Source of the DNA: a virus
Length of the DNA: 37,793 nt
Direction: 5' to 3' (one strand)
UHGV virus genome: UHGV-0272092
Of the stretch, positions 1 to 37,793 are shown one piece after another. The number at the start of each line of letters is the position of its first letter. The stretch's first letter is position 1. The position numbers and the translations under genes are program-made. Under the pieces are notes generated by a model, which made no database searches, had not been told where the DNA came from, and saw only the letters and a program-made list of their open reading frames with translations.

Positions 1-1
1 A

Positions 2-205
2 CTGTCATGGAGCACTATCGACCGTATGGAGCGCGCAGGGGAATTTCCTAAACGCTGGTATATCACCGATAAACGCTGCGCATGGAACCGTGATGAAGTT
101 GAGCGTTGGCTTGATGAACGTCAGGCAGCAAGCCCGGCAGAGTTCCAGGGTAAAAAGCCTCCTGTTCAGCAACGTGTATATCGTCCCGTGAGCAACGCTG
201 CATGA
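2..205 (+). CDS. AlpA-family DNA-binding protein (putative excisionase/regulator), 5'-truncated by window edge
   Basis: Frame 2 translates to ...STIDRMERAGEFPKRWYITDKRCAWNRDEVERWLDER..., matching the AlpA pattern (S-T-I-x-R...G-x-F-P-K...W...EV..W). Stop TGA at 203-205. Not in the ORF track because it lacks a start in the window. Confidence 0.5.
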   Translation: MSWSTIDRMERAGEFPKRWYITDKRCAWNRDEVERWLDERQAASPAEFQGKKPPVQQRVYRPVSNAA

Positions 206-344
206 GTGCGCTGCTAAGGCACTGGAGCAAATGGTCAGGATGGTACTTATTCCTGGCCTCTGTTTCAGCATGGCTTTATCTGCTGGCATTAATTTTCAGA
301 GAGGGTTGGATTAAGTGAGAAAGTTAAGCCGACTTGAAAAATAT

Positions 345-614
345 CACATGAATAAGGTTTCAATGCGCAGTCCGTCAAAGATTGTCGCCGTTACTCCTGC
401 GGCGATAGAGATCGAAAAACGCGCGATTGAAAGAGAGAAAAAAGGGCAATTCCGCATTGCCGCTCACCTTTGGCTTCAGTGTATGGATGTTGCTTCTGGT
501 GATGTTGAACGTGCAAGGATCGCGGTTCGCAGGGACCAATGTATCACAAAAGGTAACGGCCTTCGCCGTGGCGACTATAGCGGCATAGGATGTTGTGGGG
601 TGGTTTATGACTAA
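345..614 (+). CDS. PerC-like small regulatory protein (start uncertain; ORF opens at 315 with GTG)
   Basis: Segment FRIAAHLWLQCMDVASGDVERARIAVRRDQCI resembles the PerC family core as I recall it. Stop overlaps the methyltransferase start (ATGA-type coupling). Confidence 0.4.
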   Translation, partial: HMNKVSMRSPSKIVAVTPAAIEIEKRAIEREKKGQFRIAAHLWLQCMDVASGDVERARIAVRRDQCITKGNGLRRGDYSGIGCCGVVYD

Positions 615-1257
615 GAAATACACACTAATCTATGCAGATCCACCCTGGGTATACCGGGACAAAGCCGCAGATGGTAATCGCGGTGCCGGTTTTAAATATC
701 CGGTTATGAGTGTGCTGGATATCTGCCGCCTTCCTGTGTGGGATTTGGCCGATGAAAACTGTCTGTTGGCCATGTGGTGGGTGCCAACACAACCACTCGA
801 AGCACTAAAAGTTGTTGAAGCCTGGGGATTCCGTCTGATGACGATGAAGGGCTTCACGTGGATAAAATGTGGTAGTCGACAACCAGATAAACTGGTTATG
901 GGTATGGGACACATGACTCGCGCCAATAGTGAAGATTGCCTGTTTGCGGTAAAGGGAAAACTACCTACGCGCATTAATGCAGGGATCGTTCAGTCATTTA
1001 CCGCACCGCGGCTTGAGCATTCAAGAAAGCCAGATATCGTTCGTGAAAAACTTGTGCAATTATTAGGCGATATTTCTCGCATTGAACTGTTCGCCCGCCA
1101 GACGTCTCATGGCTTTGATGTTTGGGGTAATCAGTGCGAAGACCCGGCAGTGCAACTACACCCTGGATACGCGTTGGATATTGGCGGATTAACAAATGCA
1201 TTCAGCAATGCTCCGCTGTCACCAACAGACATCCAGGGGCGGGAGCGTGCTGCATGA
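607..1257 (+). CDS. DNA N6-adenine methyltransferase, MT-A70 family
   Basis: DPPW catalytic motif (YADPPWVY) near the N-terminus; RBS GGGGTGG upstream of ATG 607. The track ORF opens at 595; 607 is preferred. Confidence 0.8.
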   Translation: MTKKYTLIYADPPWVYRDKAADGNRGAGFKYPVMSVLDICRLPVWDLADENCLLAMWWVPTQPLEALKVVEAWGFRLMTMKGFTWIKCGSRQPDKLVMGMGHMTRANSEDCLFAVKGKLPTRINAGIVQSFTAPRLEHSRKPDIVREKLVQLLGDISRIELFARQTSHGFDVWGNQCEDPAVQLHPGYALDIGGLTNAFSNAPLSPTDIQGRERAA

Positions 1258-1452
1258 ACAGGGCATCACCAGCAGATTTAAGAAAATGCCTTGAAACTGC
1301 AAGGCATGCTTGCACACAGCGGGATCAGGTTTGTTCCAATTCCCGCTGTCACTGATGCTGAATTTGCAACACTGTCAGCAATATTCGAAAACAAAATTGA
1401 ATCACTGGCAGCAGAAGCAGAGATGGAAGAAAATCAGCAGAACTATTAAACG

Positions 1453-2703
1453 TTATTCCCCCGCCATCCACTTCTCAAACTTCGACGGGGAGAACGGAAT
1501 CAGATCCGTATGCTCCCCGTCAATCCATGAATCAATCATATCGGCCCACTGCTGCAACATGTAGGCGCGCTGTCTGGCGTATTCCGCTTTGTTATATACG
1601 GCGCGCACACCTTTCTGCTCATGTGCCAGAGCCTTTTCAATCCAGTCTGAAGGATAACCAGCCTCATGCAACAACGTACTGGCTGTACGGCGCATATCAT
1701 GTACAGTGAAGTCCTGAATATGCTCACCATCTTCATTTATTATTTTCACCGTTCTGTCGATCAGAGAGTTCAGCGCGGCATTAGATAATGGCTTCCGGAA
1801 ATTGTAACGACCAGGAACCAGATATTCACTTCCACCAGCGCACATCTGCAACCCGACCAATATATCCTGTGCCTGTTTAGGCAGGTAAATAACGTGCGCC
1901 CGGCTTCCCTTCATGCGGTCTGGAGGAATTGTCCATGTCCATTTTTTAAAATCTATTTCATCCCACGTTGCATTGGTGAATTCGCCCTTACGAACCATAG
2001 TGATAAGCACCAGTTTTAAAGCCATTTTCATAGTGCCCATAGCACCAATGGCATCCAGCGTGCGGAAGAACAGGCCAATTTCTTCTGGTGCCAGTGTTCG
2101 CTCTCGTGGTTTAAATATGGCGATAGACGAAGGTTTAATGTCAGCCGCAGGATTAAACAAACCATGACCACGGTCATTGGCGTGACGGTATACGCTACTG
2201 ATGATCTCCCTGGCCTGCACTGCTGTTGCCCGGCCACCGCGTTCGACAATCCGGTCACACAAATCACGAACCATCGATGTGGTAATTTCAGCCATCATTT
2301 TATTGCCAAGAACCGGAAGTATGTCACGGTCGATCACCGCCTGTTTCATTGCGCGGGTACTGTCAGCCAGGATGACGTGTTTCATATAACTGTCGGTATG
2401 TACCGCAAACGTCTCGGCACCACGAATCTTTTTGATACCGTCACGTTTAGCCGCAGCCGGTGACTGGCCTGCTTTAAGCAGCTTCTTTGCAGCAATCAGT
2501 TCTTCTCGCGCTTCTGCCAGGCTGATACCGTCACGCCCATACTGCCCGATTACCAGTGTTTCGCGGCGACCGTTGATACGGTAGTCATAGCGAAACGAGA
2601 CCGTGCCTGACGTAAGCACAGCTACATACAGCCCGTCACGATCGGAGACCTTGTACAGTTTGTCCTGCGGCTTGAGGTTTTTTAATTTTGTATCGGTAAG
2701 CAC
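1453..2703 (-). CDS. int: tyrosine integrase (P4-type, DUF4102-like N-terminus)
   Basis: 416 aa; C-terminal catalytic region HDMRRTASTLLHEAGYPSDWIEKALAH typical of phage integrases. Confidence 0.9.
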   Translation of the reverse strand: MLTDTKLKNLKPQDKLYKVSDRDGLYVAVLTSGTVSFRYDYRINGRRETLVIGQYGRDGISLAEAREELIAAKKLLKAGQSPAAAKRDGIKKIRGAETFAVHTDSYMKHVILADSTRAMKQAVIDRDILPVLGNKMMAEITTSMVRDLCDRIVERGGRATAVQAREIISSVYRHANDRGHGLFNPAADIKPSSIAIFKPRERTLAPEEIGLFFRTLDAIGAMGTMKMALKLVLITMVRKGEFTNATWDEIDFKKWTWTIPPDRMKGSRAHVIYLPKQAQDILVGLQMCAGGSEYLVPGRYNFRKPLSNAALNSLIDRTVKIINEDGEHIQDFTVHDMRRTASTLLHEAGYPSDWIEKALAHEQKGVRAVYNKAEYARQRAYMLQQWADMIDSWIDGEHTDLIPFSPSKFEKWMAGE

Positions 2704-2745
2704 AATTCACCCGTATAGAAACCATTTTCATGACGGTATGAGAGT

Positions 2746-2760
2746 ATACCTTTAAGGTAA
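2746..2760. promoter_or_regulatory. operator-like palindrome ATACCTTTAAGGTAA about 45 bp upstream of int start, nested inside inverted repeat TGACGGTAT(2730-2738)/ATACCGTCA(2759-2767)
   Basis: Member of the TTACC-N5-GGTAA family found at OR/OL; read directly from sequence. Confidence 0.5.
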
Positions 2761-2825
2761 TACCGTCACCTGTACCGACGAAAAATATGGTGTATAGTGA
2801 ATAGAAATGAATACATAAAAACAAA

Positions 2826-2849
2826 AACCCTCTGTTTTTACAGAGGGTT
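2826..2849 (-). terminator. rho-independent terminator at the end of the late/lysis operon
   Basis: Stem AACCCTCTG / CAGAGGGTT with a 6-nt loop; on the minus strand it is followed by TTTTGTTTTT. Confidence 0.6.
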
Positions 2850-3020
2850 AAATTAGTATCTGAATAGGAATGAGTTGCTATGAGTTAGCTGTTAATCATT
2901 CCCACTCAATTATTTACGATAACCATAACCAATTGAGTGATAACATTTTTCCAAATCTCAATTTTTCCCGTACCGTTTTATATACCGTCACCGGAAATCA
3001 GTACCATGAAAAATGCCATG

Positions 3021-3503
3021 CTATCTGGTCAAAGTGTCGTACTGTTTTTCGCAGACTCTTCCGGCTTCGGCTGCCCGGTCAGCATACTCTGCCAGTTGTC
3101 TGTTTCTCTCGAGAGATTTGCTGAGCACGTCGGCAAGCAAAACTCCGGTGTCTGCGGCTGACGACCCAGCGCCGACAATGGCGTTATACTGCCTGAGCTG
3201 CTCACGGATGGCAAAGAGTTGTTGCTGCAACCGGCCAGCGCTAGCGGCAGCATCAAGAGCATCATTGCGCGCCTGGTCGATCCTCTGCTGAGCTTCACGT
3301 TCATTGGTCACTTTCTCCTGTTCGTAGTACTGACGAACTTTGTCTTCTTCGGCTTTGCGGTCTTCTTCCGCCTGAGCATACCCGGCATCGTACTGGCGAC
3401 TGCCGTGTATATTCCAGGCAACCACTCCTGATATGACCAGAACAGCAAGCACTGCCACGATAAGAAACTGTTTCCAGTATGCTTTTACGAATGCCCAGAT
3501 CAT
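3021..3503 (-). CDS. Rz-like i-spanin
   Basis: N-terminal transmembrane helix ([18 protein letters not shown]) followed by a charged coiled-coil region; directly downstream of the endolysin with overlapping start/stop. Confidence 0.7.
3029..3265 (-). CDS. Rz1-like o-spanin lipoprotein, embedded in Rz in an alternate frame
   Basis: Lipobox LPLALAGC followed by a Pro/Ser-rich region, fully nested in the Rz gene. Start taken at MMLLML; the track ORF opens at 3304. Confidence 0.6.
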   Translation of the reverse strand: MMLLMLPLALAGCSNNSLPSVSSSGSITPLSALGRQPQTPEFCLPTCSANLSRETDNWQSMLTGQPKPEESAKNSTTL

Positions 3504-4427: not shown

Positions 4428-4818
4428 CGTCTTTTCTCCCCGGAATTAACTCGCGTGGATTATCGGAACGGTGATAGAGCCATATACCAATACGCACAGC
4501 GACAATTGCTGACACGAATGCGCCTGCAGAGAAAACAATCCCTTTTTCAAAAGAGTCCTGCGTGATGGTAGGGATCAGGCTGGCTATGCCGATAAGAATT
4601 GATGCTGCTGGTTTGTAAAAGAGAAGGCCGCAAAGAAAGCTGAGCATCGACAGGAGCACCCGGCGACGGATGGGGTACTCTACTGCAGAGGTAACAAAAA
4701 TTACCGCCCCAGCCAAAGCCCCTAAAGCAACCTCCGGAGGGGCACCTGCAATAACCGCAGCAAGAGAACTAAAACTAAGCAACTGATTTAATTGCTCACT
4801 TGTTACTTGAGCAGACAT
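4414..4818 (-). CDS. holin-like membrane protein (3-4 TM segments, charged C-terminal tail)
   Basis: Several hydrophobic helices and C-terminal [19 protein letters not shown]; first gene of the lysis cassette. Confidence 0.5.
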   Translation of the reverse strand: MSAQVTSEQLNQLLSFSSLAAVIAGAPPEVALGALAGAVIFVTSAVEYPIRRRVLLSMLSFLCGLLFYKPAASILIGIASLIPTITQDSFEKGIVFSAGAFVSAIVAVRIGIWLYHRSDNPRELIPGRKDDGNA

Positions 4819-4878
4819 ACTTTCTCCTGTTTACTATCTATAAGCCAGTCAATTATTGATGACTAAACCCGCATAGTA

Positions 4879-4889
4879 AACCATATATG
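4879..4889 (-). promoter_or_regulatory. conserved element AACCATATATG (late-promoter-like), about 60 bp upstream of the lysis cassette
   Basis: One mismatch to AACCACATATG at 8309 and 24915, each at a similar distance upstream of a minus-strand operon start. Confidence 0.4.
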
Positions 4890-5099
4890 AATCATTATTG
4901 TTCCATATCATATATCTCAATAAAAGTACTAATGATTTTACAGAACGAGCCAGCAGAGTGGGGGCAGTTGTACAGGAACCATAGACTTAATTTTGTATTT
5001 AATAATGCTATGGTGTAATAAACCTGAACATGTATTTAAAATACGTACTGATTCATGATAGAATTCAAAGATAACTTTTCACAAACTCCGTTTTTGATA

Positions 5100-5126
5100 C
5101 CCGCAAAATATTGCGGGCTTTTTTTT
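5100..5126 (+). terminator. plus-strand intrinsic-terminator-like hairpin overlapping the tailspike stop codon
   Basis: CCCGCAA-AATA-TTGCGGG followed by C and eight T. No annotated plus-strand gene lies upstream. Confidence 0.5.
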
Positions 5127-8100
5127 AACGTTCTTCCAGAGACTGAATCCGCTCTTTTATCTTATCCATTTCTCTGCGCTGCCATGCTGCCTCGATATAG
5201 AATAAGAGATCAGGTCTGACCCCCCATCTAGATCCTGCTGGCGTTATTTCAACGCGCTCAATGATGTCTTCCATTACCATCACTGGATTATCATCCTCAT
5301 CAACAATGATGCTCCCGTCATTATCAGTCAGCGGCATTTCCCTTTGGCCAGTAATGACGTCATCATATACTGCGGGATAATCGTCATAGCAAAGAAAGGC
5401 ATAGCGGCATGTTGTGCTTTCTTCTTCCATGAGTCCGTGAGAAATAAGAACATCACGAAGTTGCTGCGCGATTACACCATGATGTATCCTCGCCCCTTCT
5501 TCCCCCTTTATAGCGACAGCGTTCAGCCATTTATAAGCGATATACCTGACGTCACCCCAGGCATCCAGCAATGCTTCGTCAGGAGAGACCGGCTCTGTCT
5601 TTAATGTTCCGTCACTGGTAACCACAGGATTGGAGCCAAGATAAACTGTCGAGAACCTGTTTCCCGGACCACCAAGAGCATTTACATTATCAAGATAAGG
5701 TTTAACATCTCCGTTCTCAAAAAGATGTTCGAGTGCGTTATATACCGCGCGACGTGGAGTACTGCTTCCGGAACCATGCAACGTTATCATTGCACCATCT
5801 GCTGAAGACGTTATTTCACCGCCGCTAACGATTAATCTCTGAGCGGTAACATCATCAGACGGTACTTTCTTCGCAATAATGGCGTAATTACCCTCAAGTT
5901 TGACTTCCGCGCGAACTTGTCCTGATGTACCTGCATGGACAGTCAGTGACTGGACGGCAACATCATCTGTGAAATCAACGGGTACAGGAACCGTCCTCAC
6001 GCCTGACGTCGACATAAAAGTAGGAAGCGTTCTGTTAGGAGTGGCTCCGTAGACAAAATCCCTTGAAACAAATTCTTCCTGTTTAATTTTCACCCTGAAA
6101 CAATACAAATCAGCCGGGTGACCATCGTGAACATAAGGATATTTTCTGTTGTTATCCCCTATGCTCCATGGGTTTAGAAAGTCTTCCCCACCGAAAATGT
6201 AGTACAGCCAGTTGTCTTTGATACAAACTGAACCAACACCAACTGCAGAGTTAACTATTCCGCCCTGATAAATCTGATCAGTAACATTAACCCACTCTAC
6301 ATTATCCAGACTCCACTCATTGACGTTAACTCTGGTCATAAATGTTCTTGGATAATTTCCTGCATAACGGTTATCAGGTTCTCCTCCTTCCCACTCACCA
6401 AATGCGCGCTCACTGCCAAAAATAATCAGCTCATCGCCAACTTTGGCAAAAGGAAGGTTTGAGTGATGAACATTATTTGGGAAGCGAAGAGAATTCCATG
6501 ATGTACCTAAATCAGAGCTTCTGTGCAATGAACTACCGGGTTGAGTACTTAATGTCCCCCTGGTCGTCAGATACAGAATGCCATCATAATATTTTACACA
6601 TGGCTCAGATGCATTCGCCTCATATTCTGCAGGTATGCGTCTGCGAACAAAGCTACCAGGAGAACCGAAAGCATCAGAGAAATAGAGTATCCCAAGCTCG
6701 CGTGGACCAATATCACCATTATGGTAGCCAACAGCAAAACTGTTATCGCTAATCGTCGCAAAACTGTGAATCTCAGTAACAGGAGTGCTTCCGTCAACAA
6801 AAGAAGGAATAGTTCCAAGACTGGTTTTTCTCCATGGTGACGAGTGAAATGATGTACCAAAACTCCAGTATCTACCCTCGTTATTCTGATCCACATCCTG
6901 GGTATTTTGCGTCGTAACTGTAAAAGTATTTTTATCAATAACAGTAGTCACCGTCATATTCCCGGTAACACCTGTAACACCAGAGTTTGAGAAGTTGACA
7001 AAATCACCAGCAAATAATCCGTGATCAGTAATGCGAATATAAGCGACTTGCTGATTTGCTGCTTTCGTTATACCACCATAAGCGCGAAGGCTGCGACTCA
7101 TTGGGCGATCCCACAACTCTGCAACCTGCAGTTTATTTCCGCTCACGGTCCGCGTCTCAATTACAGCAAAAAGGCGATTTCTGACAACCCCCATACTCAT
7201 GCAGTGATAGTTAACTGTGGGATAGTTTTCATGTAAATCTGTAAGCCATTCCGGCGTTGTCCAGGTCTTCCCGTCATCTCCTGAGCGAACCCATGCAACA
7301 TGGAGGTTATTTACACCATGGCGGTCTCCAGCCATAAAAGGCGCATAGATGACATTGTCATATACAAACGTTTTATCCTGCGTCCAGGCGTTGTACCACG
7401 GTGTATCTGTAATTTTAAATAACTCTCCCTGGATAAAATCTTCAGAAGCATAAAAAAGAGGCTGGCCCGGTATTCTCTCAAATAAAAAACGAGCATTTTT
7501 AAATCGACTGACATCCGGAAGAGTTGATACTTTAAAAGTAAGCCCTAATCCGTCAATTTTATAACCTGGAGATGAGGCTTCAAGGCACGCGCTTATTGCA
7601 GTGGAATCGTCATTTATACCATCACCAACAGCTCCAAAATCTTTGGGGCTAATAGCATCACGCATTTTATCCTGGAACGTTCGGTACACAGCCCCAGAAC
7701 CATACTGAATAAACCAACCAAAACCACCAACAACCCCGGCGATTGCAGCATCGACATAATTACGCATTGAGCGATTATTTACAGCGTCCTGCTCAAATGA
7801 TGGATCTGCAAGGTTAGAAATTTTGTTTTGCTTTGCATCGTAATATTTTGCAAGCAAAGATGGTTTCATCAATGCACGTCTGAACCACCCAAAACATTGC
7901 TGGATCAGCATCGTCAGGTAGTCAAAGGCATCTTCATGCACTTCGGGGAAAAATTTTCCCTGATTGCGAAGGTCTGTCTCCTGCACTACATCAAGCACAC
8001 GATCTATCGTAATTCGCCATCCAGTAGCAAGCGGAGACGGAAGAACCACAGAACCGCCACTATAAGTGCCCGCCCCAGTTACCGTATAACCGGTATCCAG

Positions 8101-8244
8101 AACCAATTCTGTTACGTTTCCGTTCAGGTCAGACACCTGAACAACCAGGTCTGATTTTCTGAAAATTCGAAAAGTATACGGAAACGATGTCGTAACGCCG
8201 TTACCGGTGTATTCGTTGTGGTCAACTTCGGTTGAGACCGTCAT
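5125..8244 (-). CDS. tailspike / tail fibre protein (1039 aa), probable polysaccharide depolymerase with C-terminal chaperone-like domain
   Basis: Size, position as last virion gene, and a C-terminal segment (GVIAQQLRDVL...) reminiscent of intramolecular chaperone domains of tailspikes. Confidence 0.7.
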   Translation of the reverse strand: MTVSTEVDHNEYTGNGVTTSFPYTFRIFRKSDLVVQVSDLNGNVTELVLDTGYTVTGAGTYSGGSVVLPSPLATGWRITIDRVLDVVQETDLRNQGKFFPEVHEDAFDYLTMLIQQCFGWFRRALMKPSLLAKYYDAKQNKISNLADPSFEQDAVNNRSMRNYVDAAIAGVVGGFGWFIQYGSGAVYRTFQDKMRDAISPKDFGAVGDGINDDSTAISACLEASSPGYKIDGLGLTFKVSTLPDVSRFKNARFLFERIPGQPLFYASEDFIQGELFKITDTPWYNAWTQDKTFVYDNVIYAPFMAGDRHGVNNLHVAWVRSGDDGKTWTTPEWLTDLHENYPTVNYHCMSMGVVRNRLFAVIETRTVSGNKLQVAELWDRPMSRSLRAYGGITKAANQQVAYIRITDHGLFAGDFVNFSNSGVTGVTGNMTVTTVIDKNTFTVTTQNTQDVDQNNEGRYWSFGTSFHSSPWRKTSLGTIPSFVDGSTPVTEIHSFATISDNSFAVGYHNGDIGPRELGILYFSDAFGSPGSFVRRRIPAEYEANASEPCVKYYDGILYLTTRGTLSTQPGSSLHRSSDLGTSWNSLRFPNNVHHSNLPFAKVGDELIIFGSERAFGEWEGGEPDNRYAGNYPRTFMTRVNVNEWSLDNVEWVNVTDQIYQGGIVNSAVGVGSVCIKDNWLYYIFGGEDFLNPWSIGDNNRKYPYVHDGHPADLYCFRVKIKQEEFVSRDFVYGATPNRTLPTFMSTSGVRTVPVPVDFTDDVAVQSLTVHAGTSGQVRAEVKLEGNYAIIAKKVPSDDVTAQRLIVSGGEITSSADGAMITLHGSGSSTPRRAVYNALEHLFENGDVKPYLDNVNALGGPGNRFSTVYLGSNPVVTSDGTLKTEPVSPDEALLDAWGDVRYIAYKWLNAVAIKGEEGARIHHGVIAQQLRDVLISHGLMEEESTTCRYAFLCYDDYPAVYDDVITGQREMPLTDNDGSIIVDEDDNPVMVMEDIIERVEITPAGSRWGVRPDLLFYIEAAWQRREMDKIKERIQSLEER

Positions 8245-13173: not shown

Positions 13174-15683
13174 TGCGGAATATCTCCGGAGAATCTCTGA
13201 CGCTTCTGTGTCAGATTAAGAACAACGGGAGAACCATCATCTTTCAGCAGATAACCAGTACCAAGTTTCACCAGGTACTGACTATCGCCGTAACTTTGCA
13301 AACCATACTGACCAGGCGGTGTTTTTATCCCGGAGCCGACAACTTGTTCATTCCAAGCCTGATTAACCTGCTTATCGAATTGCTCTGCAGACATTCCCCA
13401 CGGCAAAAGGACATTCCCCATTCCGTTATAGTCATGCACGCCACCTGTAGCTACGTTAACAGCCTGTTTCCAGACATCATTGTCAATTTCGCCTGATACC
13501 ACGCCTTTTTTCGCCATCACACCAGCGTAATAATCCTTTGCGATCTCGTATGCCATTGATGCGCCCTGAGCGTCACCAGCAAATGCATCCTTCACCATGT
13601 CAGAAAACTCAAGGCGAAGATCAGCATCTTTAGGCATCGGAATACCTTTCGCATCATCAGTACCTTTACGAGCCGCCGCGCCAGCAAGAATTGTCTGCGC
13701 AGCGGTTTCAGGAGACACGGAAACATCCGGATTAAACCAGTTTTTTTCTGCCAAAATACCACCAGGCTTATCCATCAGTATCCCGGCAACGGCAGCAGAT
13801 GGAGCGTTGGCACTGATCTGCTGTAGTGCTGACATATACACCTGCCCACCACCAGTGCTCTGCCTGATGGTATCGAGATATGCTGCCTGTTGGGAAACTG
13901 GAGCATCACGAAAGAAAACACCGATCTGATTGGCCTCGTCTTTGGAAAAGAACGTCAGTGGAGTGCCATATGACTTAGCAAGGTCACTGACCTGAGCGGC
14001 ACGCAAGGCAACGCTCTGTCCAAAGTTATCCTTATTGCTCATGTCGATAGGCTTTGCCTGTCGGGAGGCAAGAGAGAACTGCACAGGATCCGACTGCCGC
14101 TGCTTTATCACCTGATTTGCAGCCGAAACAACGTTGTCATAAAGAGTTGCGCGTGCCGCATACCCCTCCCCTGTATCACCAGTATCCGGGCGTAATTGCT
14201 CAACATATGCTGTAATGCTGCTTGTCGGCATGTTGCGGAAAGAGCCTATATACTGTCCGGCGATCTGCGTATTCTTAAACTCGGTATATCGCAGGTTTCC
14301 TTCTCTGACTCCATAAGCTGCAATAAAATCATCCTCACCAGGTGGGTTAGGAAATTCAATGCCACGCATATACGCAGCCGTCGCATCGCGAACCCGGCTG
14401 TCGAGCATCGTTTTATATTCAGCCTGCTGTTGTCTGGCTAGTGCATCAGTCTGTCGCAACACGCTGGCCTGATCTGATTCACTTAAAGCATCGAACCAGG
14501 CTACACCGGTATAACGTTTATTTTTTGTCGGTAGCTGAGAAAGCCCCAGCGCAGCACTAACACCTGCAGTTAACTGCTGATCACTGTATGGCTGGCTACC
14601 GTTTTCATGATGGATAATGGCTGCACAAAGCGCCTTCAGGGTATCAGGATTTGATGCATCGAGAGGCTCATCAGCAGAAACGCCAAGTTGTTCGCACACT
14701 GCTTTGATATACGACATAGTGTCATTTTTATCAGTAGGCGGTGCCCAGCGATTAATTATCTCGCTGACGGTATCAATACCCTGCCGCTGATACGACATCA
14801 GGTTCCGCCCTAATGCACGAATACCGTGTTCAGGGGTTTCGAATTTGGCAAAGCGACCATCATCACCAGTCTGCCCAACCCACGGATTAGTTTTGCTGTA
14901 TTCAAGATTGCCGGGGTTATTGTTGCGTATACCGCGGGTACGATCGGAAGAGCCACTATCTGCTACAGCACGGCGAGAACCAGCAGCAGTATCGCTTAAC
15001 TCGCCGTTTTGCTGTCTTACCTGAAGATAGTTTGCTCCAATAGCATTTTGAGCAGTTGCTTTTGCTGTTGCTTCTTTAAACTCGATTTTCTTGGCCTGGA
15101 TTTGCTCGTCACTCCAGCCATGTGCAATGCCGTAATCCTCAATTTGCTGGAAAGTTTGCTTATTAGCCAATACGTATGCGGCGTTGTCGCCATACAATGC
15201 TGCGGCATTTTTACCATTGTTCAGCAGCGTAGCCTGAAACTGGCCTTCTTCGTAGGCATTTATTTGCCCTATCTCGTGCCGCCCGGCCTGCGTAGTGAAC
15301 TGAATGCGCTGCTGCTGCGCCTGCTGCATGAAAGCATTACGAGCCTGTTCATCCGGCAGCGACATAGCCAGTTGTTCGACCTGAGCATCAAACTGCTGCG
15401 TATACTCCTGACCTTTTCCAATAGCATTTTTCCCTTTCAGGTTAAGCAAACCTGTTTCAGGGTTATTCAGCAGATCGCTGCTTATCTGGCTTAAGCTAAG
15501 AGAAGCATCCTGAGCCATAGCAACATTCGCACGCTGTTTTGCCTGCGCAATAATACCTGCATATTGCTCTGCAACATCGCCAAGTACATCACCGACATTT
15601 GGTGTCTGAAACGATGAGAATCCCTGCGTCGAAATCCCTCTGCTCTGAACCTGACGGCCCGATGTTGTTGGTACAACTGGCAT
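13170..15683 (-). CDS. internal virion protein (837 aa), possible cell-wall-interacting domain
   Basis: Position; contains conserved-looking segment GIRNNNPGNLEY...HGIRALGRNLMSYQRQGIDTVSEIINRWAP whose function I cannot assign. Confidence 0.5.
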   Translation of the reverse strand: MPVVPTTSGRQVQSRGISTQGFSSFQTPNVGDVLGDVAEQYAGIIAQAKQRANVAMAQDASLSLSQISSDLLNNPETGLLNLKGKNAIGKGQEYTQQFDAQVEQLAMSLPDEQARNAFMQQAQQQRIQFTTQAGRHEIGQINAYEEGQFQATLLNNGKNAAALYGDNAAYVLANKQTFQQIEDYGIAHGWSDEQIQAKKIEFKEATAKATAQNAIGANYLQVRQQNGELSDTAAGSRRAVADSGSSDRTRGIRNNNPGNLEYSKTNPWVGQTGDDGRFAKFETPEHGIRALGRNLMSYQRQGIDTVSEIINRWAPPTDKNDTMSYIKAVCEQLGVSADEPLDASNPDTLKALCAAIIHHENGSQPYSDQQLTAGVSAALGLSQLPTKNKRYTGVAWFDALSESDQASVLRQTDALARQQQAEYKTMLDSRVRDATAAYMRGIEFPNPPGEDDFIAAYGVREGNLRYTEFKNTQIAGQYIGSFRNMPTSSITAYVEQLRPDTGDTGEGYAARATLYDNVVSAANQVIKQRQSDPVQFSLASRQAKPIDMSNKDNFGQSVALRAAQVSDLAKSYGTPLTFFSKDEANQIGVFFRDAPVSQQAAYLDTIRQSTGGGQVYMSALQQISANAPSAAVAGILMDKPGGILAEKNWFNPDVSVSPETAAQTILAGAAARKGTDDAKGIPMPKDADLRLEFSDMVKDAFAGDAQGASMAYEIAKDYYAGVMAKKGVVSGEIDNDVWKQAVNVATGGVHDYNGMGNVLLPWGMSAEQFDKQVNQAWNEQVVGSGIKTPPGQYGLQSYGDSQYLVKLGTGYLLKDDGSPVVLNLTQKRQRFSGDIPQ

Positions 15684-15695
15684 CTTATTATCCCC

Positions 15696-16235
15696 TTATC
15701 GACCGGTTGGAGTGCCAACAGCAGCAGAAATCGGCGCAGCCTTCTGAGAGAACGGGCTCCACGTTCCGCCGCCCATCTGGTATGCACCGTATGCTTTTAG
15801 TGGTGCCGTTAACAAAGTGCTGGTCATCGATGATTTAGCAGCCGACTGAGCAGCAGCCCCCTGTGCCTGAGCATTCATTCCCTGAACCTGATACCCATAT
15901 GCCTCACGCTGAGCATTATTCACTGTCGTTAACGCATCAAGAGTGCCGAACTGAGCATTATCCGCAAAAACGTCAAGAGCTGTTCCGCTACTTAATTCCG
16001 CACCGGTAGCCCCCATAGTGGCCGCCGCAGTGCCTGAGCGTTGACGCATTTCACGACGACGCTGATCCGCTTCAATATTCCCACGATTGATTGAATCCTG
16101 TGCCTGAGCTTCAGCAATTTCAGCATTCCGATCAGCTATGGCTGACTGGTATTTTGCCTGCTTGCTCTGGCTGTACATTGACGCGGCTGTGGATGCCACT
16201 GTGACGGCAACCAAAGCGATGGCTGGGTTACACAT
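15696..16235 (-). CDS. internal virion protein B-like (179 aa, N-terminal TM segment)
   Basis: Hydrophobic N-terminus AIALVAVTVASTAA; size and position parallel T7 gp14. Confidence 0.45.
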   Translation of the reverse strand: MCNPAIALVAVTVASTAASMYSQSKQAKYQSAIADRNAEIAEAQAQDSINRGNIEADQRRREMRQRSGTAAATMGATGAELSSGTALDVFADNAQFGTLDALTTVNNAQREAYGYQVQGMNAQAQGAAAQSAAKSSMTSTLLTAPLKAYGAYQMGGGTWSPFSQKAAPISAAVGTPTGR

Positions 16236-25568: not shown

Positions 25569-25580
25569 AAGGTGAAAATC

Positions 25581-25913
25581 ATGAAAGAGAAGACTGCAGC
25601 TGAGCGCTATGCCGCAGCTATCAATGCCGCGATGGCGATTGTAAACCTGCGTGAAGAGATTAAAGATCTCCTTGCAATTATCCATAACAACCTGACATGT
25701 ACAGAGTTGCTTGGCGGTCAGTACAACGGTGAGGCGGTGAAGGAGGCATTTAAAAATGCCGAGGTAGGAATAATTCCAGCAAACTATGTCAAGGCTGAAT
25801 GTGTGCTCCTAAAGGCACGAGTGAGTCTGCATGAAGATCCTGGTAATCTCGGTCGAACTGCAATGCGTTACGTGATAGACGAGTCGAATGCCAAACACAA
25901 TCTACCGAAATAA
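25581..25913 (+). CDS. hypothetical protein (110 aa), plus-strand gene between terminase and portal
   Basis: ATG 25581 with RBS AAGGTGA; track ORF opens at GTG 25572. No family recognised. Confidence 0.55.
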   Translation: MKEKTAAERYAAAINAAMAIVNLREEIKDLLAIIHNNLTCTELLGGQYNGEAVKEAFKNAEVGIIPANYVKAECVLLKARVSLHEDPGNLGRTAMRYVIDESNAKHNLPK

Positions 25914-28194: not shown

Positions 28195-28538
28195 ACTATT
28201 AATTTCGTTTCATGCCAGCCTTTAGTCACCCAGCATTGCGAGTCACCATTACACGGGCATGAATTAACTGGAACTCTCTCGCCGCACTTACCGCAACATT
28301 TTCTGCTGATCGATTTTATACGCCCGCGCACGCGTGCATCATCCTGGCGGATCAGTAACGCGATGTACTCGGCCATTTCATAGGGATCGCGACCAGGGCG
28401 CCGGGCGGCGCAGTTCCGCGCCAGCATTTCCTGCTCCTGCTTATCCAGCACCAGTTCAATTTTGCGCTCACCGGCGGCGGACTGCCGAGCGCGCTGCGCG
28501 GCTTTGCGTTCTGCGGGGGATTTAGCCACGAATCGCAC
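28191..28538 (-). CDS. Cys-rich small protein (about 111-115 aa), candidate late-gene regulator
   Basis: C-terminal Cys cluster CCGKCG...CPCNGDSQC; last gene before the terminase-proximal terminator. Track start is GTG; a second GTG with RBS GGAG is at 28526. Confidence 0.45.
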   Translation of the reverse strand: MRFVAKSPAERKAAQRARQSAAGERKIELVLDKQEQEMLARNCAARRPGRDPYEMAEYIALLIRQDDARVRGRIKSISRKCCGKCGERVPVNSCPCNGDSQCWVTKGWHETKLIV

Positions 28539-29651: not shown

Positions 29652-29661
29652 GTGTTAGTCC

Positions 29662-29925: not shown

Positions 29926-29926
29926 A

Positions 29927-30418: not shown

Positions 30419-30420
30419 TC

Positions 30421-35221: not shown

Positions 35222-35298
35222 TTACCTTACGGGTAATTTTTTTAACTCATATCTATTGACACCAAACCAAATAAGCATAATTATTACCCCAACGGTAA
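35222..35298 (+). promoter_or_regulatory. OL-like region: operators TTACCTTACGGGTAA (35222-35236) and TTACCCCAACGGTAA (35284-35298) flanking a sigma70-like promoter (-35 TTGACA 35256-35261)
   Basis: TTGACA followed 14-16 nt later by CATAAT/ATAATT; the second operator overlaps the start region. Confidence 0.6.
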
Positions 35299-35472: not shown

Positions 35473-35772
35473 ATGAACGTTAATCAGCAGAAAAATCTTC
35501 AAAAAATCATGCTGGCATTCGACAAGGACTACCGCCTGTCAGAACAGCTATATGACCGACAAGTTGAACTGATTGAGAGCATCCGACTTCATCAACTGTC
35601 CTCAACTTTCGACGTTGTAACAGGCAAAGGCGTTCGTCAGGAAGTGCTGGAGGCTGCTAAAGACAGCCCTGAGTTCGAAGAACTGATGGATGCCTACCGG
35701 CGCGAGGCAATGGCAATTATAGCGCGCTGGGATCTGGCGGATCAGCTTGATGGGCAGAGGGACGCGGCATGA
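35473..35772 (+). CDS. hypothetical early protein (99 aa)
   Basis: RBS GGGAGGG 7 nt upstream of ATG 35473; ATGA overlap with the exonuclease start. Track ORF opens at 35458. Confidence 0.5.
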   Translation: MNVNQQKNLQKIMLAFDKDYRLSEQLYDRQVELIESIRLHQLSSTFDVVTGKGVRQEVLEAAKDSPEFEELMDAYRREAMAIIARWDLADQLDGQRDAA

Positions 35773-36668
35773 TGCGGAACGCTGGAATCATGGATAGAAC
35801 AAAATACATCGGAGGAAGCGATGTTGCAGGGATTCTTGGAATTAGCCCATGGCGCACCCCGCTTGAGGTTTATCTGGATAAGGTCCAGCCACGTGTCAAA
35901 CCAGTAGACCCAAGCAAGCAGAAAGTTTTCACGCGTGGCCAGCGTATGGAGCCATACGTAATAGACCTGCTTTCTGAGGAAACAGGGATGGAAATCGTTC
36001 ATCGCGGAAACCGCTATATCCACCGTGATTACGATTTTATTGCAGCTGAGATCGATGCAGAAGCAGCGTCAGGCGAGAACATTGAGATCAAAACAGTTAG
36101 TCCGTTCAAAGCCAAAGAATGGGGAGAAATCCAGACAGATGCAATTCCTGTGCATTACACGGCCCAGGCCATGCACGGGTTGATGGTTACAAACAAACAG
36201 GTATGCGTTTTCGGTGTGCTTATCGGTGGCGACGACTTCCGAATCTATCGGGTTGAGCGTGATGAAGAAACTATCCAGGCGATCTTAGAAAAAGAAATCG
36301 CTTTCTGGGACCGAGTGAAAAATCTTAACCCGCCGGAAGCTACCAGCGTAAGCGATGTATCGCTGATGTTTGAGAAAGATGCCGGGACAAGTATCGAGGC
36401 TGACGGAAAGGCACTCGCACTATTCAACGATCTACGAGACATGAAATCACGCAGAAAATCACTGGAAGAAGAAATAGCTATATCAGAAGAGAAGCTGAAG
36501 ATGTACATGCAAGAGCACTCAGTCCTGACCCTGGACGGAAAGCCGCTCTGCACATGGAAATCTCAGATCAGCAACAGATTCGACCAGAAGCTATTCCAGT
36601 CAGTACACCCTGAGTTATTCGAAAAATTCAAAACAACAACGACACAACGCGTCTTCAGAATGAAGTAA
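35769..36668 (+). CDS. YqaJ-type recombination exonuclease
   Basis: N-terminal IGGSDVAGILGISPW motif typical of YqaJ/lambda-exo-like nucleases; paired with RecT downstream. Confidence 0.75.
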   Translation: MMRNAGIMDRTKYIGGSDVAGILGISPWRTPLEVYLDKVQPRVKPVDPSKQKVFTRGQRMEPYVIDLLSEETGMEIVHRGNRYIHRDYDFIAAEIDAEAASGENIEIKTVSPFKAKEWGEIQTDAIPVHYTAQAMHGLMVTNKQVCVFGVLIGGDDFRIYRVERDEETIQAILEKEIAFWDRVKNLNPPEATSVSDVSLMFEKDAGTSIEADGKALALFNDLRDMKSRRKSLEEEIAISEEKLKMYMQEHSVLTLDGKPLCTWKSQISNRFDQKLFQSVHPELFEKFKTTTTQRVFRMK

Positions 36669-36677
36669 GGAGAAAAA

Positions 36678-37700
36678 ATGTCTATCAATGCACTTAAGGC
36701 AGCGGCTACCGGTAACCAAGTTGCACATCATAATGAGAAACCAACAACTCTGGCCGGACTTCTGGCAGACCCAAAAATTAAAGCTCAGATGGCTTTGGCA
36801 CTTCCAAAGCACATGACAGCAGACCGTCTGGCGCGCATAGCAACCACAGAGATCAGAAAGGTTCCAAAACTTGCATCATGCGACCAAGCCAGCTTCCTGG
36901 GGGCAATTATGCAATGTGCCCAATTGGGTCTTGAACCAGGCGGAGCTCTTGGACACGCTTACCTGATACCGTTCGACAAACGCCAGAAAGTAAATGGAAG
37001 ATGGGAAACCGTATCTACAGAAGCACAGCTGATTATCGGCTATCGCGGAATGATTGACCTTGCCCGCCGCTCTGGGCAGATCCTGAGTATCTCGGCTCGT
37101 ACCGTACATACAAACGACAAATTCAGCTACTCATACGGCCTGGAAGAAACGCTCGAGCATTTACCTTGCGAAACAGGTGACCGCGGAGAATTAACGCACG
37201 TTTACGCCGTTGCACGACTGAAAGATGGCGGAGTCCAATTTGAAGTTATGAGCCGGGCAGACGTTGAGAAAGTTCGTGCACTGAGCAAAGCCGGTAGCAG
37301 TGGCCCATGGGTTGATCACTTCGATGAGATGGCTAAAAAAACAGTAATTCGCCGACTGTTCAAATATCTTCCTGTTTCTATTGAAATGCAGAAGGCTGTT
37401 GTTATGGATGAGCGCGCTGAAGCTGGACTTAGCCAAGATAACGCAGCTGTTATCACTGGTGAATATTCCGTAGTTGACGATGAGCGTCAACACCTGTCGC
37501 CAATTTCAGATTCAGAACGAGAAGAAGCTCGAGAATATATCATCGCGATACTTAATAGCCTGGATCCATCTGCTGAAGATGCAAAAACGATGTTCAAGCG
37601 CGCTGAAAATGAAATTAACACCATGGCTGAAAAGCTCGGTGATGAATATCACCAAAAATTCATGATGACGCTTAACGATATGCGTCCAGAATTCGAGTAA
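36678..37700 (+). CDS. recT: RecT-family single-strand annealing protein
   Basis: 340 aa; segments LIPF...IIGYRGMIDLARRSG characteristic of RecT, from memory. Confidence 0.8.
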   Translation: MSINALKAAATGNQVAHHNEKPTTLAGLLADPKIKAQMALALPKHMTADRLARIATTEIRKVPKLASCDQASFLGAIMQCAQLGLEPGGALGHAYLIPFDKRQKVNGRWETVSTEAQLIIGYRGMIDLARRSGQILSISARTVHTNDKFSYSYGLEETLEHLPCETGDRGELTHVYAVARLKDGGVQFEVMSRADVEKVRALSKAGSSGPWVDHFDEMAKKTVIRRLFKYLPVSIEMQKAVVMDERAEAGLSQDNAAVITGEYSVVDDERQHLSPISDSEREEAREYIIAILNSLDPSAEDAKTMFKRAENEINTMAEKLGDEYHQKFMMTLNDMRPEFE

Positions 37701-37749
37701 CCACCACCGCGGCGCCACGTGCGCCGCACTGCAACCAAGAGAGGTATTC

Positions 37750-37793
37750 ATGAAAGGTGCATTAGGTAAGAAAGAACTCCTGGCGGTGGTGCC
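37750..37793 (+). CDS. start of a further early gene, truncated by window end
   Basis: RBS AGAGAGG upstream of ATG 37750; reads MKGALGKKELLAVV; preceded by hairpin GCGGCGC-CACGT-GCGCCGC (37713-37731). Confidence 0.3.
   Translation, partial: MKGALGKKELLAVV

What the first reader, a model, noticed from the sequence alone, without database searches (positions are those of the whole stretch)
2..1257. Integrase-proximal plus-strand trio: AlpA-like, PerC-like and an orphan MT-A70 adenine methyltransferase
The methyltransferase has the DPPW motif and no adjacent restriction endonuclease, so it is probably an orphan methylase that could protect phage DNA from restriction or act epigenetically on the host. 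It is translationally coupled to a small PerC-like regulator and preceded by an AlpA-family gene truncated by the window edge. These genes are convergent with int, which is an unusual orientation for an excisionase candidate.
Basis: partly seen in the sequence, partly recalled or inferred. Interest (0 to 1): 0.45.

Follow-up and report, generated by a model that had tools for sequence, protein, structure and literature searches.

The report
Known phiV10-type phage early-operon genes
These are the last genes of the repressor-controlled early operon of a common, already annotated temperate E. coli phage (phiV10/epsilon15 type): a probable excisionase, a tiny membrane peptide, a PerC-family protein and a restriction-less MT-A70 adenine methyltransferase whose real substrate is still untested.

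Summary
The window is a complete, circularly permuted phiV10/epsilon15-type (Uetakevirus) genome. Bases 1-3000 are 97.8% identical to phiV10, where the same genes are annotated. A matching region occurs in 572 of 5426 complete E. coli genomes.

The AlpA-like gene is not truncated. Its first 44 nt lie at 37750-37793.

The "trio" is five overlapping ORFs at the end of a lambda-PL-like early operon:
- AlpA-like
- a 38-aa membrane ORF
- PerC-like, with its true start at GTG 315
- MT-A70, carrying DPPW
- DUF1382, frameshifted here

No restriction enzyme, second methylase or PNB-2 homologue is encoded anywhere in the window, so "orphan" holds.

The methylase core is 82% identical to the Stx2-phage enzyme type studied as M.EcoGV and M.EcoPA8orf6770P. 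That type is reported to methylate GATC when over-produced. With its partner PNB-2 it is reported to prefer 16S rRNA.

Convergence with int is not unusual, and overlap with the neighbouring gene is generic in this operon.

One lead seems new. PerC-domain genes sit directly upstream of phage adenine methylases of three different families, which hints at a functional link (probability about 0.2).

The parts
35222..35298 (+). PL-like early promoter (TTGACA-17-AATTAT, 35256-35284) flanked by two operator-like palindromes TTACCN5GGTAA (35222-35236 and 35284-35298). This is the inferred start of the operon that ends with the genes of the finding.
   Evidence: Consensus scan. Palindrome search: 11 sites against 0.66 expected. 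The site lies just downstream of the two-HTH repressor gene 34580-35164 and its terminator 35185-35204.
35769..37700 (+). YqaJ-type exonuclease (35769-36668) and RecT (36678-37700). These are the upstream genes of the same operon and are given as context.
   Evidence: Pfam YqaJ 2.7e-23 and RecT 4.4e-57.
37708..37726 (+). GC-rich stem-loop GCGGCGC-CACGT-GCGCCGC between recT and the alpA-like gene, with no T-run after it. It may be a pause or processing site.
   Evidence: Read from the sequence. The equivalent epsilon15 position is annotated 'stem-loop; transcriptional pausing'. Not tested here.
37750..37793 (+). First 44 nt (ATG onward) of the AlpA-like gene. The gene continues at window position 1.
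   Evidence: The junction aligns without gaps to phiV10.
1..205 (+). Remainder of the AlpA-like gene (82 aa in all). It is the probable recombination directionality factor (excisionase) and possibly also a regulator.
   Evidence: Pfam Phage_AlpA 24.2 bits against GA 21. PHROG 66, E 2e-16. Equal in length to phiV10p36 and to epsilon15 gp33.
202..318 (+). 38-aa membrane-peptide ORF. It has an ATGA overlap with the alpA-like stop and a GTGA overlap with the PerC-like start.
   Evidence: PHROG 17484, E 2.6e-27. Conserved against epsilon15 gp32, with 8 synonymous and 7 non-synonymous codon differences.
315..614 (+). PerC-family small protein, 99 aa, starting at GTG 315. The annotated ATG 348 (phiV10) and ATG 363 (RefSeq) starts are probably too short.
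   Evidence: Pfam PerC 30.1 bits against 22.6. Its N-terminus KLxRLEKYH is conserved, with synonymous changes, in epsilon15, which has ATG at the GTG position and no ATG at 348 or 363. The AF2 model shows helices at 6-15, 28-42, 46-59 and 63-81, mean pLDDT 71.8.
607..1257 (+). Orphan MT-A70-family N6-adenine methyltransferase, 216 aa. Catalytic DPPW lies at 637-648.
   Evidence: Pfam MT-A70 3e-22 over the full profile. Nearest solved structures are Tetrahymena MTA1 (5.9e-13) and METTL3. Residues 1-187 are 82% identical to the Stx2-phage enzyme.
1254..1449 (+). DUF1382 gene with an ATGA overlap on the MTase stop. In this window an A-to-GG change near 1304 shifts the frame.
   Evidence: The frameshifted allele occurs in 1 of 51 relatives.
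1286..1307 (-). Terminator-like hairpin plus T-run on the int strand, about 150 nt past the int stop. It is a candidate int terminator, and the frameshifting change makes its stem perfect.
1453..2703 (-). P4-type tyrosine integrase, convergent with the operon and only 3 nt from the DUF1382 stop. No plus-strand terminator lies between them.
   Evidence: Pfam Arm-DNA-bind_3 and Phage_integrase. Terminator scan.
2731..2992 (.). attP arms carrying repeated ATACCGTCA(CC) motifs at 2731-2739 (inverted), 2760-2770 and 2982-2992. These are candidate arm-type Int sites.
2894..2910 (.). attP core AATCATTCCCACTCAAT. [quoted passage not shown]
   Evidence: Homology to integrated prophages stops at 2910. 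guaA flanks int in E. coli 20Y000092. The core sequence is published for ZX5, phiV10 and epsilon15 (PMC9782041).

Best explanation
Bases 37750-37793 plus 1-1449 are the promoter-distal end of the early-left, lambda-PL-like operon of a complete phiV10/epsilon15-type temperate podophage. [quoted passage not shown]

Shown here:
- The gene order is exonuclease, RecT, AlpA-like, a 38-aa membrane peptide, PerC-like, MT-A70 and DUF1382, all on one strand.
- From the alpA-like gene onward, every junction is a 4-8 nt start/stop overlap.
- The chain runs head-on into a P4-type int that sits next to attP.

Inferred:
1. The operon is transcribed from the promoter at 35256-35284. Operator-like palindromes flank this promoter, so the genes are silent in the lysogen and switched on after induction or infection.
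2. The AlpA-like protein is the recombination directionality factor for the P4-type integrase, as TorI is for IntS and Vis is for P4 Int.
3. The MT-A70 protein is a stand-alone orphan N6-adenine methyltransferase.
   - By 82% identity to the M.EcoGV / M.EcoPA8orf6770P type, it most likely adds Dam-like GATC m6A to replicating phage and host DNA.
   - This would keep fast-replicating phage DNA fully methylated rather than form half of a restriction-modification system.
4. The PerC-like protein is a small helical, protein-binding regulator co-expressed with the methylase.
5. Read-through of the early transcript into int would be antisense to int during lytic growth.
For: Identity with known phage:
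- Bases 1-3000 are 97.8% identical to phiV10, and the annotation is the same.
- The circular junction is seamless.
- A matching region is found in 572 of 5426 E. coli genomes, with guaA next to int. The attP core is published.

Operon:
- One promoter-like site lies at 35256-35284, with TTACCN5GGTAA palindromes on both sides.
- No promoter-like site was found in 1-3100 (0 found, 4.7 expected), and there is no plus-strand terminator before int.
- All junctions overlap.

Methylase:
- It matches Pfam MT-A70 over the full profile and carries DPPW. The nearest structures are MTA1 and METTL3.
- The core is 82% identical to the Stx2-phage enzyme, and 75-80% identical overall in the Stx2, Enterobacter, Klebsiella and Salmonella phage enzymes aligned here.
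- The window has no REase, no second MTase and no PNB-2 homologue.
- M.EcoGV is listed with GATC specificity (PMC6602927; PMC10810198).

RDF:
- PHROG 66 matches at E 2e-16 and Pfam AlpA is above its cutoff.
- It is the only such gene beside a P4-type int, and epsilon15 gp33 is annotated as an excisionase.
Against: - None of these genes has been tested in any phiV10/epsilon15-type phage. The ZX5 study did not address them.
- Purified M.EcoPA8orf6770P alone showed no GATC-specific or other clear DNA activity in vitro (PMC10810198). This conflicts with the in-vivo GATC result.
- E. coli is already Dam+, so a GATC enzyme looks redundant. GATC is neither clustered nor strongly avoided in the window: 148 sites, observed/expected 0.75.
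- The promoter and operator assignments rest on consensus scans only.
- The C-terminal 29 residues differ from the Stx2 enzyme.
Confidence: 0.6

Rival explanations
1. The MT-A70 protein is mainly an RNA methyltransferase acting on 16S rRNA. It would need a small partner subunit and would tune prophage induction, as reported for the Stx2a-phage enzyme M.EcoPA8orf6770P with PNB-2.
For: - The catalytic core is 82% identical.
- The published holoenzyme prefers 16S rRNA in 30S subunits, and the enzyme alone is nearly inactive (PMC10810198).
- MT-A70 relatives such as METTL3-METTL14 and MTA1-MTA9 work as heteromers (PMC7544214).
Against: - The window has no PNB-2 homologue anywhere. The best tblastn E is 7.3, and BLASTP against the PerC-like protein finds nothing.
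- The C-terminal tail, which the authors suspected binds PNB-2, is different here.
- The published assignment rests on SAM consumption, and no modified base was mapped.
- Phage MT-A70 genes elsewhere follow unrelated genes.
Confidence: 0.2
2. The PerC-like protein is a dedicated partner or regulator of the methyltransferase, for example an activating, targeting or restraining subunit. The overlap of the two genes would then reflect stoichiometric co-production.
For: - 78 of the 80 closest IMG/VR relatives have the 8-nt overlap.
- PerC-domain genes lie directly upstream of adenine methylases of three Pfam families:
  - MT-A70 in this window.
  - Dam PF05869 in K-12 yfdN-yfdM, SfV, ST64B and the P0148 locus.
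  - D12 PF02086 in F1055 and the P0147 and P0150 loci.
  - In the P0138 and P0143 loci a methylase follows after one or two intervening genes.
- The AF2 model is a helical bundle with only weak TPR/MIT-like resemblance. That is a protein-binding kind of fold rather than a DNA-binding one.
Against: - In epsilon15, SPN1S, Tyrion and Klebsiella relatives, and in one E. coli prophage variant, other genes separate PerC from the methylase.
- Overlapping junctions are generic in this operon.
- The nine YfdN-type cases share one lambdoid backbone (replication genes, then the PerC-domain gene, then a methylase; RusA follows in most), so they are not independent.
- Short PerC-only genes in islands have no methylase nearby.
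- The MTase C-tail does not co-vary with the upstream gene.
- The fold matches are not significant (E above 0.2).
Confidence: 0.2
3. The enzyme is a broad or non-specific anti-restriction methylase, like M.EcoGII or Hia5. It would blanket phage DNA with m6A to escape many restriction systems.
For: - It is an orphan phage methylase in an early operon, it has no separate target-recognition domain (216 aa), and the whole Pfam core is used.
- Prophage-encoded non-specific adenine methylases that are silent in lysogens are known (PMC5778455; PMC3299994).
Against: - M.EcoGII is a 349-aa DPPY enzyme with a central TRD, which is a different family.
- The closest characterised relative is reported as GATC-specific, not non-specific.
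Confidence: 0.08
4. The methylase is the modification half of a restriction-modification system.
For: None was found. This is only the general rule that most bacterial DNA methylases are paired with a restriction enzyme.
Against: The genome is closed, and no nuclease with REase character is present.
Confidence: 0.02

Closest known systems
Escherichia phage phiV10 genes p36-p32 (also vB_EcoP_ZX5; epsilon15 gp33-gp29)
   Same: - Gene order and orientation are the same.
- DNA identity with phiV10 and ZX5 is about 98%.
- The int is P4-type.
- The attP core is the same and integration is at guaA.
   Different: - The window has a frameshifted DUF1382.
- It has separate exo and recT alleles.
- It has no O-acetyltransferase gene.
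- It has an endosialidase tailspike.
- Epsilon15 has a 35-aa ORF between PerC and a shorter methylase, and a different gene next to int.
M.EcoGV / M.EcoPA8orf6770P, the MT-A70 methylase of Stx2a phages (Fang 2012 as cited; Gong et al. 2023, PMC10810198)
   Same: - Residues 1-187 are 82% identical and both carry DPPW.
- Both are int-proximal and convergent with int.
- Both are followed by a DUF1382 gene.
   Different: - In Stx2 phages the upstream gene is PNB-2, a 130-aa HTH-like protein unrelated to the PerC-like protein.
- The C-terminal tails are unrelated.
- The host phage is lambdoid, not a Uetakevirus.
AlpA/Vis/TorI-type recombination directionality factors paired with P4-type integrases
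   Same: It matches Pfam Phage_AlpA, is small, and is encoded in an element with a P4-type int beside att.
   Different: - There is no significant pairwise similarity to TorI (E 0.23).
- It has a 30-residue low-complexity C-terminal tail.
- RDF activity is untested.
PerC/Pch activators of LEE1 and the ANR (AraC negative regulator) family
   Same: - The Pfam PerC score is above its cutoff.
- There is a weaker NCBIfam ANR hit, 23.6 bits against 32.
- PerC-like genes commonly accompany alpA and a P4-type int in Gram-negative PICIs (PMC11773190).
   Different: - Only the roughly 45-residue core matches.
- The N- and C-terminal parts are specific to Uetakevirus phages: 36 phage records, and 51 clusters in 1.84 billion representatives.
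- PerC-like proteins from mobile elements can activate, repress or have no effect on LEE1, so 'activator' is only a family name.
K-12 CPS-53/KplE1 yfdN-yfdM and SfV orf40-dam
   Same: A PerC-domain gene abuts or overlaps a phage adenine methylase gene.
   Different: - YfdN has an extra roughly 95-residue N-terminal domain.
- The methylase belongs to another family (Dam PF05869).
- The pair lies in the early-right operon after the replication genes.

Membership tests
MT-A70 (PF05063) beta-class N6-adenine methyltransferases | Profile match above the curated threshold across the whole domain | tested here: met
   79.8 bits against a cutoff of 23.9. Profile positions 1-172 of 172 match residues 5-176.
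MT-A70 (PF05063) beta-class N6-adenine methyltransferases | Catalytic motif IV DPPW near the N-terminus | tested here: met
   D11-P12-P13-W14, window 637-648. The motif is invariant in nine homologues.
MT-A70 (PF05063) beta-class N6-adenine methyltransferases | Sequence relationship to solved MT-A70 structures | tested here: met
   Tetrahymena MTA1, E 5.9e-13 over 169 residues. METTL3, about 1e-5. The fold itself was not modelled.
MT-A70 (PF05063) beta-class N6-adenine methyltransferases | SAM-dependent methyl transfer to adenine N6 | not testable with these tools
   This needs an enzyme assay or a methylome.
Orphan (solitary) methyltransferase | No cognate restriction endonuclease in the same element | tested here: met
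   The genome is closed. Pfam scans of the larger ORFs in the window-specific regions, and the phiV10 annotation of the shared regions, show no REase.
Dam-like GATC-specific methylase (M.EcoGV type) | Methylation of GATC | not testable with these tools
   This is inferred only from 82% identity to an enzyme type reported as GATC-specific. GATC statistics in the window are uninformative.
M.EcoPA8orf6770P-PNB-2 rRNA methyltransferase holoenzyme | A PNB-2 homologue encoded next to the methylase | tested here: not met
   There is no PNB-2 homologue in the window (tblastn best E 7.3). The PerC-like protein is unrelated to PNB-2.
M.EcoPA8orf6770P-PNB-2 rRNA methyltransferase holoenzyme | The STEC-type C-terminal tail that the authors link to holoenzyme formation | tested here: not met
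   Residues 188-216 are unrelated to the Stx2-phage tail.
PerC family (PF06069) | Profile match above the curated threshold | tested here: met
   30.1 bits against 22.6, residues 35-80.
PerC family (PF06069) | Activation of LEE1/ler transcription | not testable with these tools
   Family members differ in their effect on LEE1 (PMC11773190).
ANR family (NF033650) | Profile match above the curated threshold | tested here: not met
   23.6 bits against a cutoff of 32.
AlpA/Vis/TorI excisionase-regulator family (PF05930) | Profile match above the curated threshold | tested here: met
   The full-length 82-aa protein scores 24.2 bits against 21. PHROG 66 matches at 2e-16.
AlpA/Vis/TorI excisionase-regulator family (PF05930) | Encoded in an element with a P4-type tyrosine integrase adjacent to att | tested here: met
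   The int at 1453-2703 has Arm-DNA-bind_3 and Phage_integrase domains, and the attP core lies at 2894-2910.
AlpA/Vis/TorI excisionase-regulator family (PF05930) | Stimulates excision or binds att arms | not testable with these tools
   This needs excision assays.
Restriction-modification system | A restriction endonuclease gene linked to the methylase | tested here: not met

The most novel reading that the evidence does not exclude
PerC-domain proteins may be dedicated partners or regulators of phage adenine methyltransferases. These are small helical proteins, either alone or fused to a winged-helix-like N-terminal domain as in YfdN.

- They sit immediately upstream of methylases of three unrelated Pfam families (MT-A70, Dam PF05869 and D12 PF02086), usually with start/stop overlap.
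- This happens in two different operon contexts.
- In the only MT-A70 phage enzyme studied biochemically, the small protein encoded upstream (PNB-2) is a stoichiometric subunit that sets the substrate.

If the PerC domain does the same job, the long-unexplained mode of action of PerC/Pch/ANR-type virulence regulators might involve nucleic-acid methylation or methylase control.
Probability: 0.2. Interest if true: 0.6.

Novelty: already known. Interest (0 to 1): 0.25.

Why it matters
As it stands, the finding mainly shows that the window is a complete phiV10-type phage and that the flagged genes are its standard, already annotated accessory genes.

It has modest practical value in three respects:
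- A matching region is carried in about one in ten complete E. coli genomes (572 of 5426).
- The substrate of its methylase is contested in the literature for the 82%-identical Stx2-phage enzyme type, which is reported either as a GATC DNA methylase or as a 16S rRNA methylase.
- This phage offers a natural test case that lacks PNB-2.

The recurrent pairing of a PerC-domain gene with an adenine methylase gene is cheap to test. If it proves real, it would link a family of virulence regulators to methylation.

Tried and rejected
1. **PerC-like as a PNB-2 homologue.** No similarity was found, and no PNB-2 homologue exists anywhere in the window.

2. **Tyrion gp30 or the YfdN N-terminus as PNB-2 homologues.** Neither comparison was significant. 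The YfdN N-terminal domain gave no Pfam hit, so calling it 'winged-helix-like' is only my reading of the sequence.

3. **MTase C-terminal tail co-varying with the upstream gene.** It does not. The same tail occurs with PerC, DGQHR and winged-helix genes upstream.

4. **A P1-pac-like cluster of GATC sites that would tie a Dam-like enzyme to packaging.** There is none; at most 4 sites fall in any 200 nt.

5. **A significant structural match for the PerC-like model.** None was found. The best Foldseek E was 0.21, with weak MIT/TPR-like hits.

6. **The search for related loci with a mixed PerC alignment.** It returned only near-identical phiV10-type loci. These were useful for variant counts but not for diversity.

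8. **Early Python calls.** They wrongly suggested that loci were missing. The files hold several records each.

9. **Co-folding PerC with the MTase.** I did not attempt this. The tool takes single window proteins and reports no interface measures.
Full report
**What is there**

Bases 1-3000 contain the following genes:
- On the plus strand:
  - an AlpA-family ORF running in from the window edge (2-205);
  - a 38-aa ORF (202-318);
  - a PerC-family ORF (315-614);
  - an MT-A70 ORF (607-1257), with DPPW at residues 11-14 (window 637-648);
  - a DUF1382 ORF ending at 1449.
- On the minus strand, a 416-aa P4-type integrase (1453-2703).

Family scores are as follows.

| Gene | Family | Score |
|---|---|---|
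| MT-A70 | Pfam MT-A70 | E 3e-22, whole 172-position profile |
| PerC-like | Pfam PerC | 30.1 bits (cutoff 22.6) |
| AlpA-like, full length | Pfam Phage_AlpA | 24.2 bits (cutoff 21) |

DPPW is the only (D/N/S)PP(Y/F/W) motif in a long ORF in any frame of the window.

**What the window is**

- Bases 1-3000 are 97.8% identical to Escherichia phage phiV10 and 98.0% to vB_EcoP_ZX5. These belong to genus Uetakevirus, whose type phage is epsilon15.
- phiV10 annotates the same genes as p36 (AlpA family), p35 (membrane protein), p34 (PerC-type activator), p33 (DNA methyltransferase), p32 (DUF1382) and p31 (integrase).
- The last 44 nt of the window (37750-37793) plus bases 1-205 form a 249-nt ORF of exactly the length of p36. 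The sequence across the window's end and start aligns to phiV10 without a gap.
- The window is therefore a complete genome, circularly permuted and cut inside the alpA-like gene. The gene is not truncated, and nothing lies 'outside the window'.
- A matching region is present in 572 of 5426 complete E. coli genomes.
- In integrated copies the homology stops at window 2910, and guaA follows int.
- The published attP core attgagtgggaatgatt (PMC9782041) is window 2894-2910 on the other strand.

**Operon context**

- Upstream on the same strand lie a two-HTH repressor gene with its terminator, then a TTGACA-17-AATTAT promoter at 35256-35284.
- Two TTACCN5GGTAA palindromes flank that promoter. The motif occurs 11 times in the window against 0.66 expected, and four of those sites lie in the immunity region.
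- Next come two small ORFs, a YqaJ exonuclease and RecT, and then the genes of the finding.
- No promoter-like site was found in 1-3100, and no plus-strand terminator lies before int.
- From the alpA-like gene onward, every junction is an overlap:
  - ATGA between the alpA-like gene and the 38-aa ORF;
  - GTGA between the 38-aa ORF and PerC;
  - ATGACTAA between PerC and the MTase;
  - ATGA between the MTase and DUF1382.
- I infer a lambda-PL-like early operon that is silent in lysogens. After derepression it would read through, antisense, into int. This step is inferred and not shown.

**The PerC-like start**

phiV10 annotates ATG 348 and RefSeq annotates ATG 363. In epsilon15 and SPN1S-type phages the residues upstream of these positions (KLxRLEKYH) are conserved, with synonymous changes. 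In epsilon15 the codon at the GTG 315 position is ATG, and the codons at 348 and 363 are not ATG. The gene most likely starts at GTG 315 and encodes 99 aa.

**Is the methylase an orphan?**

Yes.
- The parts of the window not shared with phiV10 are 4806-8120, 15547-16230, 25576-25908, 28529-30748, 30960-31593, 32806-34101 and 35773-37696.
- Their larger ORFs were scanned. They are an endosialidase tailspike, a DUF551 protein, an Ead/Ea22 protein, replication proteins, the exonuclease, RecT and several unassigned small proteins.
- The shared parts carry no restriction enzyme in phiV10's annotation.
- No other methylase family and no PNB-2 homologue were detected.

**What the methylase is related to**

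- Its nearest solved relatives are Tetrahymena MTA1 (E 5.9e-13) and METTL3.
- Among phages, 517 records encode a relative.
- Residues 1-187 are 82% identical to the int-proximal MT-A70 gene of Stx2a phages.
- In Stx2a phages that gene is also followed by DUF1382 and is also convergent with int.
- That enzyme type has been studied:
  - M.EcoGV is listed with GATC specificity (PMC6602927).
  - Gong, Chakraborty and Koudelka report that M.EcoPA8orf6770P alone is almost inactive in vitro.
  - They also report that it forms a 1:1 complex with PNB-2, the product of the upstream gene.
  - The complex prefers 16S rRNA in 30S subunits, and the gene raises spontaneous induction (PMC10810198).
- The two claims are unreconciled.
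- Our enzyme keeps the core but has a different C-terminal tail and no PNB-2.
- I therefore rank a Dam-like DNA activity first (overall confidence in the best explanation 0.6). I rank an rRNA or partner-dependent activity second (0.2).

**Is the coupling to PerC meaningful?**

Within the closest relatives it is constant. Of 80 IMG/VR loci, 78 have the same 8-nt overlap, one has a DGQHR gene inserted and one lacks the methylase.

In sister phages the neighbours differ.

| Phage | Genes between PerC and MT-A70 |
|---|---|
| epsilon15 | a 35-aa ORF |
| Klebsiella phage ST512-KPC3phi13.3 | DUF1317 |
| SPC32N | DUF1317 and a DndB-like gene |
| Tyrion | DUF1317 and a 75-aa winged-helix gene |
| One E. 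coli prophage variant | a DGQHR gene |

More distant phage MT-A70 genes follow DUF1317, a DnaB helicase gene or unknown genes. The methylase tail does not track the upstream gene. So the overlap seen here is a lineage-specific junction in an operon where all genes overlap.

**The orientation**

Convergence of the excisionase candidate with int is not unusual.
- Stx2 phages have xis and int convergent and overlapping.
- KplE1 has torI and intS at opposite prophage ends.
- All Uetakevirus genomes examined share the arrangement.
- A P4-type int beside att with its own promoter region is the KplE1 and P4 pattern. This point rests on established knowledge; PMC2951348 was only listed and I did not read it.

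**A lead that goes beyond the finding**

- K-12 YfdN carries a PerC domain and abuts YfdM, a truncated Dam-family (PF05869) methylase.
- The same pairing holds in SfV and ST64B.
- In Salmonella phage F1055 the YfdN homologue is followed by a D12-class Dam instead.
- A profile search of 1.84 billion representatives found only 51 related clusters.
- Five distant members, 139-153 aa long with a C-terminal PerC domain, were looked up:
  - P0148 is followed by Dam PF05869.
  - P0147 and P0150 are followed by a D12 enzyme.
  - P0138 is followed by one gene and then a D12 enzyme.
  - P0143 is followed by two genes and then MT-A70.
- Counting the four phage and prophage cases above, nine of nine YfdN-type lineages have an adenine methylase within two genes downstream. 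However, they share one lambdoid backbone and are not independent.
- Three short PerC-only proteins in islands have no methylase nearby.
- PerC-like genes also accompany alpA in PICIs. There, one represses LEE1 and others have no effect (PMC11773190).
- The AF2 model of the window protein has helices at 6-15, 28-42, 46-59 and 63-81, with mean pLDDT 71.8.
- It has only non-significant MIT/TPR-like matches. That is compatible with a protein-binding module but not diagnostic.
- I give a real functional link between PerC domains and phage methylases a probability of about 0.2.

**Verdict**

The finding is a correct reading of ordinary genes that are already annotated in a well-known phage type. 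It is not a novel system. The functions of the AlpA-like, PerC-like and MT-A70 genes have not been tested in this phage group. The literature on the methylase's nearest relative is contradictory. That contradiction, together with the PerC-methylase synteny, gives the region some residual interest.

Noticed in passing
window 37793/1 junction: The window is a complete, circularly permuted phage genome of 37,793 bp. Its end and start are contiguous in phiV10, with no gap.
   Followed up: yes
window 2746, 8349, 24967, 28072, 28090, 32161, 32223, 34462, 34510, 35222, 35284: The 15-bp palindrome TTACCN5GGTAA occurs 11 times against 0.66 expected. Four sites flank the two early promoters like operators. 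The others are scattered across the genome and are unexplained.
   Followed up: partly
window 29927-30457 (-): A 176-aa ORF has a weak Pfam Mom-family hit (E 1.2e-4, 22.2 bits, below the 27.1 cutoff). It may be a second DNA-modification gene in the same phage.
   Followed up: no
window 1300-1308: The DUF1382 gene is frameshifted by an A-to-GG change relative to phiV10. Only 1 of 51 relatives carries this allele. The same change perfects a hairpin on the int strand (1286-1307), a candidate int terminator. A sequencing error is not excluded.
   Followed up: partly
window 5125-8244 (-): The tailspike is a K1-type endosialidase with full Pfam End_* domains and the S74 chaperone domain. phiV10's O-acetyltransferase gene is absent. 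This points to a phiV10-type phage that targets the K1 capsule.
   Followed up: partly
window 315-363: Database start codons for the PerC-like gene (ATG 348 in phiV10, ATG 363 in RefSeq) are probably wrong. Conservation supports GTG 315.
   Followed up: yes
L006 1143-2210; L003 1437-2504: Some E. coli prophages and SPN1S-type Salmonella phages carry a DGQHR/DndB-like gene directly upstream of the MT-A70 gene and overlapping it. Its role next to a methylase is unknown.
   Followed up: partly
L007 1754-2413; 23 of 80 IMG/VR loci: In about 29% of close relatives a Ser/Thr phosphatase gene replaces DUF1382 between the methylase and int. This position looks like a cargo-exchange hot spot.
   Followed up: partly
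L011 6113-6882 (E. coli K-12 yfdN-yfdM): K-12 YfdN has a PerC domain and abuts the truncated Dam-family gene yfdM. The same pairing, with three different methylase families, recurs in lambdoid phages.
   Followed up: partly
proteins P0124 (923 aa) and P0139 (428 aa): Two long proteins contain 11 and 5 tandem matches to the PerC-like profile, which suggests that the PerC core can behave as a helical repeat unit.
   Followed up: no
window 35769-37700 compared with phiV10p37: phiV10 annotates a single RecE-RecT fusion protein. The window has separate YqaJ-exonuclease and RecT genes of a different allele, which are not matched to phiV10 by blastn.
   Followed up: no
E. coli chromosomes H86, H88 and H89: Some chromosomes contain the int-attP-Rz region uninterrupted, that is, the phage in attP configuration inside a chromosome. 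This might reflect tandem lysogens or assembly artefacts.
   Followed up: no
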